Virus record (IMG/VR): IMGVR_UViG_3300029288_000136
Direction: 5' to 3' (one strand)
Source of the DNA: a virus
Lineage: Duplodnaviria; Heunggongvirae; Uroviricota; Caudoviricetes
Length of the DNA stretch: 20,939 bases
Shown: positions 6,659 through 14,634 of the stretch, piece by piece
Layout of the letters: every line of letters starts with the position of its first letter
How positions within the stretch are numbered: position 1 is the stretch's first letter
The notes under the pieces: generated by a model
What the model was told of the DNA's origin: nothing
The model's database searches: none
Seen by the model: only the letters and a program-made list of their open reading frames with translations
Translations under genes and position numbers: made by a program

Positions 6659-7171
6659 ATGACATCAATAGCGGTAACCAAGAGCACACTAGGAAGAAAC
6701 GCAGTATACTTCATAGTCTCAGTTCTAAGACATAATCTAACAGACACTCAAACACCTGTAAGAAATGGAAAGGAGTGGATACTAAAATCAGAAAGCAAAG
6801 AAAATATAGACATAACAGATTTCCCAAAGATAGTGCTAAACGGAGAAATAGAATATGAATCCATAACACTTGACGGAGGAAAAAACCTGTCAAGAGACAT
6901 AGACATAATCTGCGACATATACACGCAAGGAGATAATGCCATAGCAAAAAGAGACGACTACTCAGACCAGATAAGAACAATACTATTCAACCCCGATAGC
7001 ACTGACGCAGATGGGACCACATTAAGACAATCAAACCTTATACTAAGAGAATTCACAGATGAAGTAACTGATTTCCCATACACCAGATCAGGGAATACTC
7101 AAGGAACGAAAGGAGGATCAGTGATAATAAGATCAAAAGCAATACATATGAGATTCAGATTCAAAGGATAA
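6659..7171 (+). CDS. Tail terminator (lambda U / SPP1 gp17-like)
   Basis: FPKIVL, IICDIY, helix AIAKRDDYSDQIRTIL and final strand AIHMRFRF. Immediately upstream of the tube genes. Confidence 0.65.
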   Translation: MTSIAVTKSTLGRNAVYFIVSVLRHNLTDTQTPVRNGKEWILKSESKENIDITDFPKIVLNGEIEYESITLDGGKNLSRDIDIICDIYTQGDNAIAKRDDYSDQIRTILFNPDSTDADGTTLRQSNLILREFTDEVTDFPYTRSGNTQGTKGGSVIIRSKAIHMRFRFKG

Positions 7172-7216
7172 CCAATACAACTAACTCAATGAATCAACAA
7201 TAAATAAATATAAAAG

Positions 7217-7507
7217 ATGAAAGTATTGATAACATATTTGGGTTATGGAATAGAAAGCATAGAAATACGAGCTGACTACTTCCACAGACTTGGAGGAAGC
7301 TACTCCAAGACGATAACCTGCGAAGCAACAGAAGAACAATACAATGAACTGAAAAAGAGAACAGACATCAAAATAGAAAAGATATCAGAACAAGACAAAC
7401 AAGATAAACAAGACAAATATGAGACGAAAAAACCAGTAAAAGAAACAGAAGAAAAAGTAGCAGAAGAGCGAGAAGAGAAGACAAACAGCAAAAACAAAAC
7501 CAGATAA
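7217..7507 (+). CDS. Hypothetical protein with charged low-complexity C-terminus
   Basis: 96 aa, A-rich leader, QDK x3 and an E/K-rich tail. Confidence 0.65.
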   Translation: MKVLITYLGYGIESIEIRADYFHRLGGSYSKTITCEATEEQYNELKKRTDIKIEKISEQDKQDKQDKYETKKPVKETEEKVAEEREEKTNSKNKTR

Positions 7508-7564: not shown

Positions 7565-8143
7565 ATGACAGACGCAGTAGATGCATGGACTGAGACCTGC
7601 CTTATAGGACTCGCCAAAAAGGACTCAACAGACACCCAAGTAAACGGAGTAACCGAGACAGTAGATATCGACTTAGGGGACAAAGACGCGGAATGGACCC
7701 CCTTACTCAACGGAGGAAGAGTAGTGAACTATACCCCGATGGCAGACACAAGCGTAACCCTGGAATGCTACTGCGTAGGAGCCAAACAAGCAGATGGAGC
7801 AACACAGCTAGGATTCTTCAATGCCATGATGGGAAACTCAACAGTGCAATCAGACAGGGTACACGACAAATACAGGTTAACCATCCTCTGGACAGATGAT
7901 ACCTCCATCACCACAGCAGGGGCCGCGATCACCACAACAGCTACTGCACTAAGGTTCGTTGCTGCAGAAGGGCATGTGACAAGCATAAAACCCTCTATGA
8001 CTGATGGAAGACTTAAATTCACGGTAACAATGAAGTTCCCTGCCTTTGATAAAGCAGGAAACGCGTGTATATTCTTCCAATCAGTAGGGACAACTGTGAC
8101 AATGGCTTCAGTAGCGGCATACGCAGGAACCACCTACAAATAG
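7565..8143 (+). CDS. Tail tube protein, paralogue 1
   Basis: 192 aa, beta-rich, between terminator and chaperone/tape measure. Tube-like N-terminal loop (GVTETVDIDLGDKDAEWTPLLNGG...) and MKFPAFD. Confidence 0.7.
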   Translation: MTDAVDAWTETCLIGLAKKDSTDTQVNGVTETVDIDLGDKDAEWTPLLNGGRVVNYTPMADTSVTLECYCVGAKQADGATQLGFFNAMMGNSTVQSDRVHDKYRLTILWTDDTSITTAGAAITTTATALRFVAAEGHVTSIKPSMTDGRLKFTVTMKFPAFDKAGNACIFFQSVGTTVTMASVAAYAGTTYK

Positions 8144-8213
8144 ATGAATCAATGAATGAGTAAATGAATAAACATAAACAAATATTAACATACAAATTGA
8201 GAGGTAAACAAAA

Positions 8214-8795
8214 ATGGTAGACGCATGGACTGAAACATGTCTAATACAGATGGCAAAAAAAGAAACCGCCTTAGCTTCAGAAGTACAAGTAAACGGAGTA
8301 ACTGAGACAGTAGACATAGATCTCGGAGACAAAGACTCTGAGTGGACCGCATTACTAAATGGTGGAAGAGTAGTCAACTACACCCCAATGGCCGACACCT
8401 CAGTAACACTTGACTGCTATTGCGTAGCTGCAACCCAGGGAGCAGGAGCCACCCAACTAGGCTTCTTCGACGCACTTATGGGAAACACCACAGTGCAATC
8501 AGATAGGGTACATGATAAATACCGCCTGACCATACTATGGACAGATGCCACAGCGATAACAACAGCAGGAGCAGCACTGGTAACAACCCAGACCGGGCTA
8601 AGATTCGTAGGAGCAGAAGGACACGTCACCAGTGTAAAGCCATCCATGACCGATGGAAGGCTTAAGTTCACGGTGACCATCAAGTTTCCAGCGTTCGACA
8701 AAGCAGGAAACGCATGTGTGTTCTTCGAATCATGCGACACCACTGGAACACTAGGAGCACTCCTTACCTACACTGGAACAACATATCTAAGATAG
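8214..8795 (+). CDS. Tail tube protein, paralogue 2
   Basis: 193 aa, same fold evidence as paralogue 1. GAGGT at 8201-8205 lies 8 nt before the ATG. Confidence 0.7.
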   Translation: MVDAWTETCLIQMAKKETALASEVQVNGVTETVDIDLGDKDSEWTALLNGGRVVNYTPMADTSVTLDCYCVAATQGAGATQLGFFDALMGNTTVQSDRVHDKYRLTILWTDATAITTAGAALVTTQTGLRFVGAEGHVTSVKPSMTDGRLKFTVTIKFPAFDKAGNACVFFESCDTTGTLGALLTYTGTTYLR

Positions 8796-8862: not shown

Positions 8863-9777
8863 ATGGAAGAGAGAACAATTGAAGAGAACATAGAGAAAAA
8901 ACAATACAAGATACTGCTAGCATTCCCGACAAGCAAGGAAAAAGACTATGTATTGAAAGAATTCCTAGAAAACCTAAAACACTTAGACTATCCCTTTCAC
9001 ATATTCGCAGTGGACACCACACTGGGAGACCATGAGAATAAATATACCAACCACCTACGGTCCCTTGGAGTAGAGACTGTAAAATTCGAATGGGATCCCA
9101 GTGCTGTCCACACCACATACATGCTTTCTCAGGCAAGAGACCTTATAAGACAAAAAGCAGTTGATGAAGGATATGACTACTTGATGAGCGTAGACTCAGA
9201 CATGATAATCCCACACAACACGATAACAGACCTCATAAGATATGATAAAGACTGCATAGGATACCCCTACAACATATTCGCAAGAAAAGGACAAAGAAGC
9301 ACCCCCTGCGTAACCAGATCAGGAAAGATGTACATGCAGGACACACCCCAAACAGAAGGAAACAAGTATAGAAGAGGACTGGACCTGCTATCATGGAATG
9401 ACATAAGATATATTAAAGCAGACATAGCACGGGTATACGGAGCCGGGCTTGGATGCTGCTTAATCAAGAGAAAAGTGTTGGAGAACACACGATTCAGATC
9501 ACACCCCGACATATGCATAGGAGAAGATGTATGGTACTGGAATGAAGTCAACGAGAAAGGATACGAGATGTGGATAGTGCCAAGGAAAAGACCAATACAT
9601 AAGATGAAGACTTGGAAAGTAAAAGCAACCCAGCCACTAGGGGGAGTATTCATAAACCTGCACAAAGAAGGAGACAAAGTAGTAGGAGATGCTACAGTAG
9701 CCAAACTAACCAAGGATCAACTGGAAGAAGTCAGGAAACAGATGAAAGAAAACGAAGAAACATGGAATGAAGCATAA
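8863..9777 (+). CDS. GT-A fold (GT2-like) glycosyltransferase
   Basis: ILLAFPT, ARDLIRQKA..EGYDYLMSVDSD (DxD), GAGLGCCLIKRKVLE and GEDVWY. Confidence 0.88.
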   Translation: MEERTIEENIEKKQYKILLAFPTSKEKDYVLKEFLENLKHLDYPFHIFAVDTTLGDHENKYTNHLRSLGVETVKFEWDPSAVHTTYMLSQARDLIRQKAVDEGYDYLMSVDSDMIIPHNTITDLIRYDKDCIGYPYNIFARKGQRSTPCVTRSGKMYMQDTPQTEGNKYRRGLDLLSWNDIRYIKADIARVYGAGLGCCLIKRKVLENTRFRSHPDICIGEDVWYWNEVNEKGYEMWIVPRKRPIHKMKTWKVKATQPLGGVFINLHKEGDKVVGDATVAKLTKDQLEEVRKQMKENEETWNEA

Positions 9778-10165
9778 AATGAACCAACCAAACGAAGAAC
9801 CAAACAAACCAGTTGATAAAGAGATCAATGAAAGCCCACAGAAGAAGATACTTGACTCAGTGGTAAACAATGGACGGATCACTATATCAAGAATACCTGA
9901 GAACACCAAGAAACAATTCATAGACATATCCAATGAATACTTCTGCGGAGACTATGGGATGACAATAAAATTCTTCATAGACCAAGCTATAGAATACCAG
10001 ATAATGAAGGAAAGACTAGTAGACCTGGGATCAATGGAGGAAAGACTGTCAAACCTGGAATCAGAAGTAGAGATGATGATAGCCACCACAAGCATCAAAG
10101 ACCCAAAAGAAGAAGGACCAAAGATGCTAAATGGAAGAACACTAGGAACAAACAACACAAAATAA
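9767..10165 (+). CDS. Hypothetical protein, possible ribbon-helix-helix-like domain plus coiled coil
   Basis: Strand ITISRIP, helix ENTKKQFIDISNE, turn CGDY, helix GMTIKFFIDQAI, then heptads MEERLSNLESEVE. True start may be the Met at 9779. Confidence 0.5.
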   Translation: MKHKMNQPNEEPNKPVDKEINESPQKKILDSVVNNGRITISRIPENTKKQFIDISNEYFCGDYGMTIKFFIDQAIEYQIMKERLVDLGSMEERLSNLESEVEMMIATTSIKDPKEEGPKMLNGRTLGTNNTK

Positions 10166-10227: not shown

Positions 10228-10656
10228 ATGACAAGCGGAATAGATATGATGAAGAGACATCTGGGAAAAGCGACAAACATTGAACTGACGAACGAAGACG
10301 GAAGCATAGACACATTCGAATTAAAACCCCTACCATTCGAATACTACCCCGAATACCTATGCGTAGTGGATCAGATAGTGAAGACAAGCGAGAAGAACAA
10401 AACAGACGTAAAGAAAACATACTCCGACCTCACAGACCTGCTTGTAGTATTCGTCAAGAACAGCGCGCCAAAAGGAACTGAAATAGGAGATGAAGAATAT
10501 GACAAACTCGTAAGGGAATTCGTAGTGAGAAACTTCCAGACAATATCCAATGCCTTAATGGAAGTAAACAACCCAACAGCATCAGACGACACCCGGATAA
10601 ACAAGAAACTGGAAGCACTAGAAAAAGCAAAGGAAAAAGCAGCAAAGAAAGAATGA
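10228..10656 (+). CDS. Tail assembly chaperone (lambda G-like)
   Basis: 142 aa. TFELKPLPFEYYPEYL strand-turn-helix pattern typical of these chaperones, in the canonical position upstream of the tape measure gene. Confidence 0.7.
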   Translation: MTSGIDMMKRHLGKATNIELTNEDGSIDTFELKPLPFEYYPEYLCVVDQIVKTSEKNKTDVKKTYSDLTDLLVVFVKNSAPKGTEIGDEEYDKLVREFVVRNFQTISNALMEVNNPTASDDTRINKKLEALEKAKEKAAKKE

Positions 10657-10659
10657 AGA

Positions 10660-10911
10660 ATGGTAGAGATAGAACAAGGGAGCACCCAAAAAATAATGGG
10701 TCTCATCCTTGGAAAAAAACAACAAGCACACCTTGAAAGAAACACAGTAGCGGAAATACATTATCAATTATGCAAGGAATTCAACACATACATACCGATT
10801 GAGGAACTGAACAAACAACCAATACCAACCATATTAAACCTGATGCAGATAGCAGACAGAGAAAACAAGAGATATAATGCGGAGATGAGGAAACATAACA
10901 GGAAAAGATAA
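10660..10911 (+). CDS. Tail assembly chaperone second part (lambda T-like)
   Basis: 83 aa. YIPIEELNKQPIPTILNL resembles T-type chaperone C-termini. Same reading frame as 10228-10656. Confidence 0.6.
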   Translation: MVEIEQGSTQKIMGLILGKKQQAHLERNTVAEIHYQLCKEFNTYIPIEELNKQPIPTILNLMQIADRENKRYNAEMRKHNRKR

Positions 10912-10929
10912 TACAGGATAATTGAATAA

Positions 10930-13900
10930 ATGACAAGAAAAGATATTGACATATATGTTGGGATAACCGCAGACACTAAAGAAGCGGATAAAGTAGTCAA
11001 AGCATCAGACAAGATAATCAATAACATAAAGAAGCTAAACAAGGAAGGAACCAAGAGACCAAAAGACGTACAGATGCCCAAGATAAAAGGATCCTTCTCA
11101 ACCATAAATCAACTAAAGAAACAAGCAAACCAACAAGCAGTAGCATCAACTCCGACAATATCCAAACTTAAAAACAAAGCAAAAGAAGTATTAAAAAACA
11201 ATAAAGGAGCGATCAATGGTCCAGGATTCAAGACATATAAGCCTTCAGAAGCAGCCAAAGAACAGAATAAAGCATTAACAGAAGCTGCCAAGAAAGCAGA
11301 GAAAGAGAAGATAAAACAAGATAAGTTAATTGAGAAAGAAGCCAAGAGAAAAAAAGACTTAAAGAAGAAGGCAGCAGAAAAACTATTGACAAATAAAGAA
11401 GTAATGGGGACAAAGTTTGCGACCCCTAAAAACGCCCCACAAATAGATTATGGAGGACCGATGGGTACTTGGAAGAAGTTCAAATACCAAAAGATGTTCG
11501 GAAAAGAAGTAGCCAACTCCAACATAGCCATGACCAAATTCCAGGGAACAACCGAAGCCCTCGGAGTAGGGGAAGCAAGACTATTTCAGCGGATGAAGAA
11601 ATCAGGACTACAACTAAACAAAGAAGGAAAATTCTACAGAACCATAGTTAATAAGCAAGGACAAAGACAGAAACTACATGTAAAAGACCAGAACGCCATG
11701 AAAAGACTCACCAAAGAGTCTAAGAAGTTCAACATGAACCTCCTATCAATGATGTTCTTTGGGATGAGCATATCAAGGATATTCAGGTCCTGGACCACCA
11801 CGCTAACAGACATGGCAGGGATAAGCGACGCATTCGCAGCCTCCCAACAGATAATCATGTCCTCAATGCTTGAGCCTGCCGTATGGGTTACCGAGCAAAT
11901 ACTCAATCTAACCGAAGCGCTTGATAAGATGACCATTGCCGGGATATCAGGATCACAGGCGGTAGCTGGATTCATGCTGGCAGGAGACGCGTTCGGAACC
12001 ATGCTATCAAGCGTAGGACAAGTGGGGTTGGGCATACAAGGACTGCAGAATGAGTTTGAAGACTTGTTCGTGATATTTGAGCCGGTCAAAGGAGCGATAA
12101 TAAGCGGATTAGATAAGATTGGGCTAGGTGGACTTGGAAAAATACTTGGAAATGTAGGTCCTGGAACAATGGCTGCAACTCTAGGAATAGCGGTTAACTC
12201 ACAACTACAGAAAGCATTGAATAATTTTTCAACCAAGTTCGCAAATGGAACACTGATACCGGATATGAGCAACGCATTTGACATCAATGGAGCAGTTGAC
12301 AAATCAAATACGTTCGCCTCAGATATCCTATCACTGGCGCAAGACATAAATAGAACCTTTACATTCATGCTCCCAGATAATATGAAGTATCTTGGAACAG
12401 ATATGGCTAAGACATTACTGCAAACACTTGGAGTAGGATTGGATGCTGTTACAGGAGGTCTTGGATCAACAGTACTAGCAGGGATAATGACTGGAACTGA
12501 GTGGAAGACTGGAGGTAAAGTGATTGGAGAGAGTATATTAGATACTCTTTCAAATCCTATAGAAGCAAGTGCTGGAGCAGTAACCAGTGTTTTAACTCCT
12601 TTGATTGATTTTGCTGAAGGTATCCCTATTTTAAATGAAGTTCTAAGTACGGGAGTAAATCTTGGACAACTTGCTGAATCATTTGTAAGTAATCCAGAAA
12701 ATGATCCTACTATTGGAGCATTACGATCACTTATTGGAGTTGTAGGTTTCTTTGGAGGATTACTTGTAGGTGTCGCTTCTCAAATAGCAAAACCAATAGC
12801 TGAAATACTTATTGAAGCAAGTGGAATAAATAAAGTAATAGAAGATTTGAAGACTGGACAGATCGCATTAAAGAATATTTGGGATAATCTAACTCCGACA
12901 TTCAATGGAATGTGGAGCGACATAGTAAGCATGAGTGGAAACATTGTATCTGGTATGAGCGACATATTGTTAAATACTTTCTCTTATTTAAGCACATTAG
13001 CGGAAGACATCGGAGTTAAGATAACCACATACCTATCTCCTGTTTTGGACCCATTAAAGAACACATTAGACGGAGTATGGAGTTCACTGGTGGAATTGGC
13101 AGGAAGAATAGGGATAAAATTACCTGGAACAGACACCAACGCAGGAGGAAGCACCGGGACTACGGCAACATCGACAAGCGTTGTGGAATGGGGCTGGAAT
13201 GCGCTCACCAATGCATGGGAACAGGTTGGTTCTTTTGTTTCCAATATGACTAACCTAGGTCAGGGAGTTGTAGCAGATAATATACTCCCATTTTCTCCAA
13301 TGATAAACCAAGGAGAACCAAATGTATGGACTGAGGGAACCATCCAATTCCCGATAAACTTCCTACTAGACGACAACGACATATTCGGAGATACCGCAGC
13401 CCTAGGACAATCAATAGCTATGAGGACTGGGGCGGCTATGGCAGACAACCCGGTAGAGCTTCCATTCTTCTACGTGGCCCAGAACGCATGGGAGCAAGCA
13501 GCCATAGACGCATACAATGAATCAGGTGCCAGGTATGGAAGCGGAGAAGAAGAATCATACGGTAGAGGAGAAGACCAGGGGGCATGGATGAGCGAATGGT
13601 TCAGGGTGCACTTAGAACAAGAGCAGGCATGGGCTGAAGTAGCGGACAAGACTCATATGACTCAGGAAGACATAGATGAGTTAACGAGCAAAGTAACCGG
13701 GTGGACAGCTGAAGACCTTCCAAGAGTACAGGAAGGACAATACTATAATGCCATAACTGGAACTATAAGGAATGAAGGGAATAATCCAGCATATGATTAC
13801 ACAAATGAAGGAGAAATACGAAGACAACAAGCTGAAAGAGCAGCATCCGATCTTACAAACATAGCTACATCAATACTTGGAGAAGAATATGTAGTTCAAT

Positions 13901-14634
13901 TAAGAAACCTAAACTCAAAAGTACACTCTAATTGGACCAATCAAGTGTATGGATGGGAAGCACTTGAAGACTGGTACAATAATGCCATAAAAGAAGGGAT
14001 AAGTTTGAATAAGATAAGTGAGGTAATGAATCAGATAATAGACAAATCAGAAGAATGGAGGGATACTGAATCATGGAAACATCAGGCAGAACAAATACTT
14101 GGATACCTATCACCTACAGTATCAACAAATCAAGGAACTGTAAATAAAGGAGCTATGGATGTGATTCCAAGAGTCATATCCAATCCAGTTAGCCAACCAA
14201 GCGGAGTAATCGAACAACCTAAAAAACCAATCACAAGTGTGTTAAGCTCAGTACAACAAGAGATAAAAGACAAATACGGATGGGCTACTGGGCACATAGC
14301 AACATTAAGCGATGTTATAAAAGGAACTGAGGACTGGGCAAACAATAAACTATCTCTTGCAGCAGTAACAAGTCTGACAAACTCATGGGGATCGGATATT
14401 CCAGTATATAAGAAAGGAGGATATGTTCCAAATACCGGGTTAGCATATCTTCACGCAGGAGAAACAGTGATACCGGCAGGACAAGGAGGGACACAGATAA
14501 TATACATACAACCGGATATAACATTGAATGTATCCCAGATATCAAGCAACATAGACGTAAAGAGGATAGGAGCGCAGTTAAGCGAGGAATGGGGAAGCGA
14601 GCTAAGGAGAAGATCAGCATACTTGGGGAGATAA
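10930..14634 (+). CDS. Tape measure protein
   Basis: 1234 aa after the chaperones. N-terminal IDIYVGITADTKEA, long helical A/G/L-rich body, hydrophobic segments, Trp at 11-residue spacing (WDNLTPTFNGMW) and C-terminal YKKGGYVPNTGLAYLHAGETVIP motif. Confidence 0.9.
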   Translation: MTRKDIDIYVGITADTKEADKVVKASDKIINNIKKLNKEGTKRPKDVQMPKIKGSFSTINQLKKQANQQAVASTPTISKLKNKAKEVLKNNKGAINGPGFKTYKPSEAAKEQNKALTEAAKKAEKEKIKQDKLIEKEAKRKKDLKKKAAEKLLTNKEVMGTKFATPKNAPQIDYGGPMGTWKKFKYQKMFGKEVANSNIAMTKFQGTTEALGVGEARLFQRMKKSGLQLNKEGKFYRTIVNKQGQRQKLHVKDQNAMKRLTKESKKFNMNLLSMMFFGMSISRIFRSWTTTLTDMAGISDAFAASQQIIMSSMLEPAVWVTEQILNLTEALDKMTIAGISGSQAVAGFMLAGDAFGTMLSSVGQVGLGIQGLQNEFEDLFVIFEPVKGAIISGLDKIGLGGLGKILGNVGPGTMAATLGIAVNSQLQKALNNFSTKFANGTLIPDMSNAFDINGAVDKSNTFASDILSLAQDINRTFTFMLPDNMKYLGTDMAKTLLQTLGVGLDAVTGGLGSTVLAGIMTGTEWKTGGKVIGESILDTLSNPIEASAGAVTSVLTPLIDFAEGIPILNEVLSTGVNLGQLAESFVSNPENDPTIGALRSLIGVVGFFGGLLVGVASQIAKPIAEILIEASGINKVIEDLKTGQIALKNIWDNLTPTFNGMWSDIVSMSGNIVSGMSDILLNTFSYLSTLAEDIGVKITTYLSPVLDPLKNTLDGVWSSLVELAGRIGIKLPGTDTNAGGSTGTTATSTSVVEWGWNALTNAWEQVGSFVSNMTNLGQGVVADNILPFSPMINQGEPNVWTEGTIQFPINFLLDDNDIFGDTAALGQSIAMRTGAAMADNPVELPFFYVAQNAWEQAAIDAYNESGARYGSGEEESYGRGEDQGAWMSEWFRVHLEQEQAWAEVADKTHMTQEDIDELTSKVTGWTAEDLPRVQEGQYYNAITGTIRNEGNNPAYDYTNEGEIRRQQAERAASDLTNIATSILGEEYVVQLRNLNSKVHSNWTNQVYGWEALEDWYNNAIKEGISLNKISEVMNQIIDKSEEWRDTESWKHQAEQILGYLSPTVSTNQGTVNKGAMDVIPRVISNPVSQPSGVIEQPKKPITSVLSSVQQEIKDKYGWATGHIATLSDVIKGTEDWANNKLSLAAVTSLTNSWGSDIPVYKKGGYVPNTGLAYLHAGETVIPAGQGGTQIIYIQPDITLNVSQISSNIDVKRIGAQLSEEWGSELRRRSAYLGR

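What the first reader, a model, noticed from the sequence alone, without database searches (positions are those of the whole stretch)
7565..8795. Two full-length tail tube paralogues maintained in tandem
Seen: about 75-80% amino-acid identity, yet many codons for identical residues differ synonymously (gat atc gac tta ggg vs gac ata gat ctc gga). The duplication is therefore old, both copies look selected, and it is not an assembly artefact. Differences cluster at the N-terminal DST-DT/ETALASEV patch, GAKQAD/AATQGA and the C-terminal 20 aa, while the core is invariant. Only copy 2 has a Shine-Dalgarno-like GAGGT, and it has an extra Cys. Known: siphoviruses typically have one major tube gene, with variants often made by frameshift. 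Inference: a heteropolymeric tail with major and minor rings, alternating surfaces or differential glycosylation by the adjacent GT, or two tail types.
Basis: partly seen in the sequence, partly recalled or inferred. Interest (0 to 1): 0.72.

Follow-up and report, generated by a model that had tools for sequence, protein, structure and literature searches.

The report
Two adjacent tail-tube genes in virus
An uncultivated long-tailed virus carries two adjacent, old and intact copies of its tail-tube gene, which proves common in its virus family and is already noted, unexplained, in some cultured phages, so it is a solid new example rather than a new kind of system.

Summary
Window 7565-8143 and 8214-8795 encode 192- and 193-aa paralogues with 78% aa and 73% nt identity. 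Synonymous sites are near saturation (pS 0.72) and dN/dS is 0.06. No Pfam, PHROG or PDB sequence match exists. An AlphaFold model nevertheless matches solved tail-tube proteins and Hcp (Z 9-11.5), and the genes lie upstream of the chaperones and a 1234-aa tape measure.

The pair is not a one-off. In this unannotated tube family, about a third of related loci carry tandem pairs. These arose at least nine times, and two lineages kept them through speciation. Several pairs have one copy with inserted beta domains. The same slot holds a glycosyltransferase in 12 relatives, and both a pair and a glycosyltransferase here.

The window pair's 40 differences cluster in loops where relatives tolerate insertions, and in the C-terminus.

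Most likely both subunits build one tube with two outer surfaces. This is inferred, because there are no expression or virion data.

Two related major-tail genes are already reported as unexplained in actinophage clusters DJ and EL. This scan also noted tandem tube pairs on other DNA (e1-372252, e1-4528131). Verdict: a new member of a known, unexplained kind, of moderate interest.

The parts
7565..8143 (+). Tail tube (major tail) protein, copy 1, 192 aa, ends TAG
   Evidence: ORF. AF2 model pLDDT 77.9. Foldseek and VIA hits are all tail-tube/Hcp proteins, Z 9-11.5. Family HMM E 5e-81.
8144..8213 (+). 70-nt AT-rich spacer with GAGGT 8 nt before the copy 2 start. It contains stops in copy 1's frame, and copy 2 is in another frame, so no read-through fusion is possible.
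   Evidence: Sequence. Upstream table. No terminator-like site on the + strand between the copies.
8214..8795 (+). Tail tube (major tail) protein, copy 2, 193 aa, ends TAG, extra Cys174
   Evidence: ORF. 78% identity to copy 1. Family HMM E 4e-79. Sister of copy 1 in trees, support 100/100.
8863..9777 (+). GT-A-like glycosyltransferase occupying the variable slot after the tube genes
   Evidence: Pfam Anp1 and Glyco_tranf_2_3, both weak and below the curated cut-offs; PHROG 1574. Homologues directly follow the tube gene in 12 related loci.
9767..10165 (+). Conserved 132-aa gene that closes the variable slot; function unknown
   Evidence: Homologues downstream of the tube gene or glycosyltransferase in 28 related loci.
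10228..10911 (+). Two small genes in the position of tail assembly chaperones
   Evidence: Position before the tape measure. Homologues in 8 related loci. Function inferred from position.
10930..14634 (+). 1234-aa tape-measure-like gene
   Evidence: Length and position. Weak homologues in the same position in 21 loci. Inferred.
6659..7507 (+). Two small genes (170 and 96 aa) before the tube genes, too small for a sheath; probable head-tail or tail-completion proteins
   Evidence: ORFs. The 170-aa gene has homologues upstream of the tube gene in 3 loci. The role is inferred.

Best explanation
Both genes encode genuine major tail-tube subunits of a non-contractile (siphovirus-type) tail. They came from a tandem duplication, or possibly from capture of a homologous tube gene from a close relative, and both have stayed intact. 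The core that forms the ring and lumen is nearly unchanged. The differences lie in exterior loops and the C-terminal arm. Most likely both subunits are built into the same tube around the tape measure, in mixed or alternating order, giving it two outer surface chemistries. This would be the two-gene counterpart of SPP1 gp17.1/gp17.1*, and of the plain-plus-decorated paralogue pairs seen in this virus's relatives. Shown here: the fold, gene position, age, purifying selection, and recurrence and retention in relatives. Inferred: expression of both copies, co-assembly, and exterior location of the variable patches.
For: Fold: the AF2 model (pLDDT 77.9) matches only tube proteins. VIA gives Z 11.5-8.7 to SPR TTP, YSD1/Chi, HFTV1, 80alpha, lambda gpV, SPP1 gp17.1 and Hcp; see also Foldseek PDB and BFVD. 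A search independent of Foldseek, run on a related paralogue, gives the same fold. Position: the genes lie before the chaperone-like genes and a 1234-aa tape measure, and no sheath-sized gene is adjacent. Selection: dN/dS 0.058 with pS 0.72. All family-invariant residues are present in both copies. Divergence is symmetric: at differing sites each copy matches the family majority 12 times. Composition is equal, GC 0.48 in both. Recurrence: tandem pairs occur in 12 of 33 IMG/VR and assembly loci, and in 15 metagenome loci against 26 judgeable single-copy loci. The trees need at least 9 origins, and the AU test rejects a single copy-1 clade (p 9e-9). Two lineages have orthologous copy-1 and copy-2 clades, so those pairs survived speciation. 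All ten pairs tested have pS 0.57-0.77; dN/dS is 0.06-0.34 in the eight where dS could be estimated, and dS is saturated in L024 and L035. Surface diversification: in L007/9/16/44, L024, L034 and L035 one copy carries 70-140-aa inserts. These sit at P0001 positions about 92/93 and 117/118, and smaller indels sit at about 21 and 76, which are the window pair's variable patches. The modelled insert consists of two small beta domains. One of them resembles domains of lambda gpJ and of a tailspike (Z 8.3-8.7, borderline). Precedent for hetero-rings in this fold: Bacteroides Hcp heterohexamers (PDB 9vne; PMC13035841).
Against: There are no transcript, proteome or virion data for either copy. Each copy keeps every conserved residue, so each could form homohexamers and a tube on its own. 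If one copy was acquired laterally from a relative about 78% identical, the low dN/dS reflects selection in separate genomes, and co-residence could be recent. No closer relative exists in the databases to date the event. The exterior location of the variable patches is inferred from indel tolerance in relatives, not from a ring model.
Confidence: 0.5

Rival explanations
1. Positional specialisation. One paralogue builds the bulk of the tube. The other forms one or a few special rings, for example next to the distal tail protein or under the tail terminator, as tube-initiator and adaptor paralogues do in contractile systems.
For: Tube-fold paralogues with ring-specific roles are normal in contractile tails and injection systems; Afp1/Afp5-type chains both appear among the matches. 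The C-terminal arm, the most divergent part (11 of 40 differences), mediates ring-to-ring contact in some siphovirus tubes (own knowledge of SPP1).
Against: Known adaptor paralogues are far more diverged than 78%. Separate genes sit in the positions expected for the distal-tail and tail-completion roles (positions; Tail_completion_gp17 in relative L003). Two thirds of relatives manage with a single tube gene.
Confidence: 0.18
2. Redundant or transitional state. The second copy is a dosage duplicate, or a recently captured allele from a related virus on its way to replacing the resident gene. Only one copy is needed, and the copies do not cooperate.
For: In the L055-group pairs the two copies are not sisters, which fits lateral capture. 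Actinophage FortCran gene 22 is thought to be horizontally acquired (PMC12859696). No closer relatives are available to show long co-residence of this particular pair.
Against: Among 10 pairs examined none is young; all have pS of at least 0.57. Two lineages kept both copies through speciation. Both window copies are intact, with symmetric divergence and equal composition. The window copies are each other's sisters with 100/100 support.
Confidence: 0.2
3. Obligate alternating A3B3 rings. This would be the unfused equivalent of the pseudo-hexameric trimer formed by the fused double-domain tube proteins of T5 (pb6) and P74-26.
For: T5 and P74-26 tube proteins arose by duplication and fusion (PMC5717097, PMC10034513), so tandem paralogues are the expected intermediate. 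Hcp heterohexamers exist (PMC13035841). Duplication is recurrent in this family.
Against: No fused double-tube form was found among the long representatives; these are single cores with inserts. Differences lie in loops and the C-terminus rather than in conserved core strands. Nothing shows that homo-rings are disfavoured.
Confidence: 0.1
4. Assembly artefact, or two strain alleles joined in tandem by the assembler.
For: The contig is from a metagenome, and only one record of it was seen.
Against: The copies share 73% nt identity and have distinct flanks and leaders. The same tandem layout appears in many independent assemblies of relatives.
Confidence: 0.02

Closest known systems
[quoted passage not shown] Gordonia phage FortCran gp22/gp24; Microbacterium phage Damascus gp17/gp19)
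   Same: Siphoviruses with two paralogous major tail genes in the tail module, conserved across a whole cluster (all 56 DJ phages), with function unexplored (PMC12859696, PMC11080557).
   Different: In those phages the genes share 43% identity and are separated by one gene, and one copy looks horizontally acquired from its G+C content. Here they share 78% identity, are directly adjacent and have equal composition. The window genes belong to a different tube sequence family with no Pfam, PHROG or PDB sequence match.
SPP1 gp17.1 / gp17.1* (two major tail proteins from one gene by frameshift)
   Same: Two tube subunit species with the same core and different exteriors, co-assembled into one flexible tail (PMC7666168 and its cited Auzat 2008; the ratio and dispensability are from my own knowledge).
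   Different: SPP1 makes the variant by programmed frameshifting, which adds a C-terminal domain. Here there are two separate genes with their own starts, and in this virus neither carries an added domain.
T5 pb6 and Thermus phage P74-26 tail tube proteins (duplication plus fusion, pseudo-hexameric trimers)
   Same: They derive from a duplication of the tube domain (PMC5717097, PMC10034513). Fold match to P74-26: Z 7.5.
   Different: Those are fused in one polypeptide and very diverged (16% identity between domains in P74-26). Here the ORFs are separate, in different frames, with stops between them. No fused relatives were found.
Bacteroidales T6SS Hcp heterohexamers (Hcp2-Hcp3, PDB 9vne)
   Same: Same tube fold (Z 8.8). 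Paralogues co-assemble in one ring (PMC13035841, PMC13213661).
   Different: This is a secretion-system tube in which minor Hcps carry effectors, not a virus tail. The paralogues are far more diverged.
Earlier notes of this scan on other DNA (e1-372252 Synergistota phage; e1-4528131)
   Same: Tandem old tail-tube paralogues in siphovirus-type modules. In e1-372252 the second copy is decorated, like L007, L034 and L035 here.
   Different: Those are different genomes and probably different sequence families. No look-alike stretch outside this window was found by sequence.

Membership tests
Tail tube / Hcp fold superfamily (siphovirus major tail protein) | Beta-sandwich with flanking helix, superposable on solved tube proteins | tested here: met
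   VIA Z 11.5-8.7 over 130-155 residues to SPR, YSD1/Chi, HFTV1, 80alpha, lambda and SPP1 tubes and to Hcp; 138 chains at Z of 8 or more. Foldseek gives probability 1.00 hits only to tube proteins.
Tail tube / Hcp fold superfamily (siphovirus major tail protein) | Gene lies between head-tail joining genes and the chaperones/tape measure, with no sheath gene beside it | tested here: met
   Order is 170 aa, 96 aa, tube 1, tube 2, glycosyltransferase, 132 aa, 142 aa, 83 aa, 1234 aa. The same order occurs in relatives, with Tail_completion_gp17 upstream in L003.
Tail tube / Hcp fold superfamily (siphovirus major tail protein) | Sequence membership in a described tube family (Pfam, PHROGs, or a PDB sequence) | tested here: not met
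   No Pfam or PHROG family at E up to 1 other than noise. The profile of 26 sequences finds nothing in PDB sequences. It is therefore an undescribed sequence family within the fold.
Tail tube / Hcp fold superfamily (siphovirus major tail protein) | Polymerises as stacked hexameric rings around the tape measure and is present in virions | not testable with these tools
   Needs expression, EM or proteomics.
Two-major-tail-gene siphoviruses (actinophage DJ/EL type) | Two paralogous major tail genes in one tail module, conserved among relatives | tested here: met
   78% identity. Pairs occur in about a third of related loci, and orthologous pairs occur in two lineages.
Two-major-tail-gene siphoviruses (actinophage DJ/EL type) | Homology to the actinophage major tail proteins themselves | not tested
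   No sequence of FortCran or Damascus was on hand. The structural neighbours include Gordonia and Mycobacterium phage major tail proteins only at fold level.
Fused pseudo-hexameric tube protein (T5 pb6, P74-26) | Two tube domains in one polypeptide | tested here: not met
   Copy 1 ends with TAG, followed by a 70-nt spacer with further stops and a different frame. The long family members are single cores with inserts.
SPP1-type frameshift variant | Second tube species made by programmed frameshift from the same gene | tested here: not met
   There are two full-length genes, each with its own ATG.

The most novel reading that the evidence does not exclude
The two subunits form obligate alternating hetero-hexameric rings. 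The repeated duplications in this family would then be snapshots of the evolutionary path that led, by fusion, to the pseudo-hexameric trimeric tubes of T5 and P74-26. In that case a viral tail tube built from two gene products would be a regular design rather than an oddity.
Probability: 0.12. Interest if true: 0.75.

Novelty: new member of a known kind. Interest (0 to 1): 0.45.

Why it matters
Tail tubes are usually described as homopolymers of one protein. In this tube family, a second copy has been gained at least nine times and kept through speciation. The slot that takes it is also filled by a glycosyltransferase or by a decorated copy. This points to steady selection for varying the outside of the tail, which bears on adsorption, stability and recognition by host defences or antibodies. 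It also gives a tractable test case, because the two small proteins could be co-expressed and imaged, for a question left open in cultured actinophages with two major tail genes. Finally, it adds a sizeable unannotated tail-tube family (234 clusters at 50% identity) that annotation pipelines currently miss.

Tried and rejected
- Pfam and PHROG scans of both copies gave nothing usable, and a profile search of PDB sequences also gave nothing, so the identification rests on fold and gene position.
- The genome-contig scan gave only one 4-kb contig, binned with an Aminicenantes MAG, so it offers no host clue.
- A single ancient duplication with orthologous copies across the family is rejected (AU p 9e-9 and 1e-69).
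- Recent gene conversion is not supported. Sliding-window pS is 0.57-0.91 across the window pair, and orthologous copy-1 and copy-2 clades stay separate where they can be tested.
- A read-through or frameshift fusion of the two copies is rejected, because they are in different frames with stops in the spacer.
- I looked for fused double-tube relatives and found none.
- The sigma-70 and terminator scan showed nothing above shuffles between the copies.
- The Atlas look-up of the insert domain scored under 0.9 and was uninformative.
- Comparing contig C3 with the rest of the bin found no shared DNA or proteins, so the bin does not identify the host.
- Complex prediction was not run. Two proteins 78% identical and of tube fold would be expected to pass by likeness, a hexamer exceeds the size limit, and the result could not separate hetero- from homo-assembly.

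Full report
**Observation.** The + strand carries two ORFs, 7565-8143 (192 aa) and 8214-8795 (193 aa). They are separated by a 70-nt AT-rich spacer.
- BLASTP gives 78% identity (149/190, E 2e-106).
- On 189 aligned codons, nucleotide identity is 73% and third-position identity 44%. Of 150 codons for identical residues, 73 differ.
- Nei-Gojobori gives pS 0.72 (near saturation), pN 0.125 and dN/dS 0.058, with a bootstrap range of 0.03-0.11.
- The 40 residue differences are clustered (permutation p = 0.001). They fall at 15-24, 72-92, 112-128 and 172-187.
- At conserved family columns the differences are conservative (L/M, S/T, E/D).
- Each copy matches the family majority at 12 differing sites, so neither is decaying.
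- Composition is the same in both (GC 0.48). Copy 2 has an extra Cys174 and a GAGGT 8 nt before its start.

An assembly artefact is excluded by the divergence.

**What the proteins are.** Neither copy hits Pfam or PHROGs. A 26-sequence profile finds no PDB sequence. An AlphaFold model built on the family alignment has pLDDT 77.9 and pTM 0.74. Against solved structures it matches only tube proteins:
- Foldseek gives probability 1.00 to phage, tailocin, injection-system and T6SS tubes.
- VIA gives Z 11.5-8.7 to SPR phage TTP, YSD1/Chi, HFTV1, 80alpha, lambda gpV, SPP1 gp17.1 and Hcp, with 138 chains at Z of 8 or more.
- BFVD hits are major tail or tail tube proteins.
- A search that does not depend on Foldseek, run on a related paralogue, recovers the same fold (Z about 10).

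The gene order is 170 aa, 96 aa, tube 1, tube 2, glycosyltransferase, 132 aa, 142 aa, 83 aa, then a 1234-aa tape-measure-like gene. No sheath-sized gene lies beside the tube genes. In relative L003, a Tail_completion_gp17 gene lies upstream and HK97-type capsid genes further up. The rest of the 84.9-kb contig has terminase, a Mu-like portal and the capsid gene just before the window, so the window continues a circularly permuted virus genome. These are the major tail-tube genes of a siphovirus-type tail, and they belong to a sequence family that current libraries do not name.

**The family and the survey.** The 5.8-billion-protein search found 24 relatives at 38-49% identity and none closer. 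The exhaustive search found 234 clusters at E up to 0.001. I fetched loci from IMG/VR, assemblies and JGI metagenomes and scanned them with a family HMM.
- Tandem pairs occur in L003, L007/L009/L016/L017, L008, L020/L021, L024, L034 and L035, besides the window. Nineteen loci are single-copy.
- Among 80 metagenome loci there are 15 pairs, 26 single-copy loci with enough flank to judge, and 39 contigs too short to judge.

About a third of judgeable loci therefore carry a pair.

**Trees.** In the careful tree the window copies are sisters (100/100), as are the copies in L003, L008, L024, L034 and L035. The larger tree needs at least 9-10 origins of the two-gene state. The AU test rejects one clade of all copy-1 genes (p 9e-9). 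Two lineages behave differently. The L007/L009/L016/L044 group, and a group of about 14 metagenome loci (L055, L061, L065, L067 and others), have separate orthologous copy-1 and copy-2 clades. Those pairs were kept through speciation without homogenisation. In the second group the copies are not sisters, which fits capture of a tube gene from another family member. All ten pairs tested are old (pS 0.57-0.77). In the eight where dS could be estimated, dN/dS is 0.06-0.34; dS is saturated in L024 and L035.

**What varies.** In several pairs one copy carries an insert of 70-140 aa: L007-type copy 2 (333 aa), L024 copy 1, L034 copy 2 and L035 copy 2. Some representatives carry two inserts. The inserts sit after P0001 residue about 92 and after about 117. 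Smaller indels sit at about 21 and about 76. These are the window pair's variable patches. A domain cannot be inserted in the lumen or at a ring interface, so I infer these patches face outward.

The model of L007 copy 2 (pLDDT 80.5) shows two small all-beta domains at 87-154 and 160-225. The second resembles a domain of lambda gpJ and of a phage tailspike. With Z 8.3-8.7 and 67-71 residues aligned, this is borderline for so small a domain.

The slot between the tube gene and a conserved 132-aa gene is variable. It is empty in some loci. In 12 loci it holds a homologue of the window's glycosyltransferase, and 10 of those are single-copy. In others it holds a second tube gene. It holds both in the window and in L020/L021. 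Phage glycosyltransferases that modify capsid and tail-tube proteins are known in mycobacteriophages (Freeman et al. 2023, as cited in PMC11600133). The common theme is modification of the tube's exterior.

**Mechanism.** My best reading, at about 0.5, is that both subunits enter the same tube and give it two surface chemistries. This is a two-gene analogue of SPP1 gp17.1/gp17.1* and of the plain-plus-decorated pairs in relatives. The steps that are shown and those that are inferred are as follows.
- Shown: fold, position, age, purifying selection, recurrence and retention in relatives.
- Inferred: expression of both copies, co-assembly and exterior location of the differences.

The rivals are these:
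- One copy forms special rings at an end of the tube (0.18).
- The pair is redundant, or a captured allele in transit (0.20). This is weakened by the absence of young pairs and by the two lineages with orthologous pairs.
- The rings are obligate A3B3, an unfused stage towards the T5 pb6 and P74-26 design (0.10). Hcp heterohexamers show that the fold allows this (PMC13035841), but no fused relative was found.
- The pair is an assembly artefact (0.02).

One caveat applies specifically to this pair. With no relative closer than 49% identity, in-place duplication cannot be told apart from capture of a copy about 78% identical. The low dN/dS alone therefore does not prove selection during co-residence.

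**Comparison with what is known.** Two related major tail genes are reported as an atypical, unexplained feature of all 56 cluster DJ Gordonia phages. Those genes share 43% identity, are separated by one gene, and one copy is thought to be horizontally acquired (PMC12859696). The same feature is reported for clusters EL, AM, AU, AW, BI and CC (PMC11080557). T5 and P74-26 tubes are fused duplicates (PMC5717097, PMC10034513). HFTV1, the solved archaeal siphovirus, has one tube protein (PMC12494034). This scan has also noted tandem tube paralogues on other DNA (e1-372252, e1-4528131). The phenomenon is thus known but unexplained. What is new here is an unannotated tube family in which it is frequent, recurrent and linked to a variable surface-modification slot.

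**Host.** Earlier notes call the virus archaeal, on the basis of a captured chromosome fragment. I did not test that claim. The bin's only SSU rRNA scores higher with the bacterial model (1308 bits) than with the archaeal one (865 bits). The viral contig shares no DNA or proteins with the other contigs. The bin therefore does not establish the host.

**Verdict.** This is a new member of a known, unexplained kind. Interest is 0.45.

Noticed in passing
window 7565-8795 (residues 68, 70, 168 of both copies; 174 of copy 2): Both copies share three lineage-specific cysteines where the family has Ala (99/122), Pro (111/122) and Asn (111/122). They were gained before the copies diverged and kept in both. 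Disulfide cross-links within or between subunits are possible (compare the inter-ring disulfides of NBD2 gp39, per the abstract of PMC13576161, which I did not read in full).
   Followed up: partly
window 8863-9777 and loci L006, L012, L015, L019, L020-L023, L026-L028, L032: A glycosyltransferase homologue directly follows the tail-tube gene in 12 related loci, 10 of them single-copy. This suggests family-wide glycosylation of the tube or virion, independent of the duplication.
   Followed up: partly
L007:6593-7594, L009, L016, L024:5428-6237, L034:6616-7497, L035:6465-7553: In relatives, one tube paralogue carries one or two inserted small beta domains in exterior loops. The insert sites differ between lineages, so the insertions were independent.
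   Followed up: partly
window 9767-10165: A 132-aa gene of unknown function is conserved between the tube/glycosyltransferase slot and the chaperone-like genes in 28 related loci. It has no Pfam or PHROG match.
   Followed up: no
G000 C1:428217-429964 and contig C3: The bin's SSU rRNA scores 1308 bits with the bacterial Rfam model and 865 with the archaeal one, and is about 1.75 kb long. The viral contig C3 shares no nucleotide or translated similarity with the other nine contigs. Its assignment to this bin, and the archaeal host proposed in earlier notes, are therefore not settled by the bin.
   Followed up: partly
window, all 22 + strand genes: Most genes have A-rich leaders of the type AAATAAATAAA..ACAAAA-ATG and no Shine-Dalgarno motif. 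The two tube genes are the only ones ending in TAG; of the other 20 genes, 19 end in TAA or TGA and one runs off the window.
   Followed up: no
window 8144-8213: The spacer between the copies contains a short ATGAAT-type repeat (ATGAATCAATGAATGAGTAAATGAATAAAC). Its meaning is unknown.
   Followed up: no
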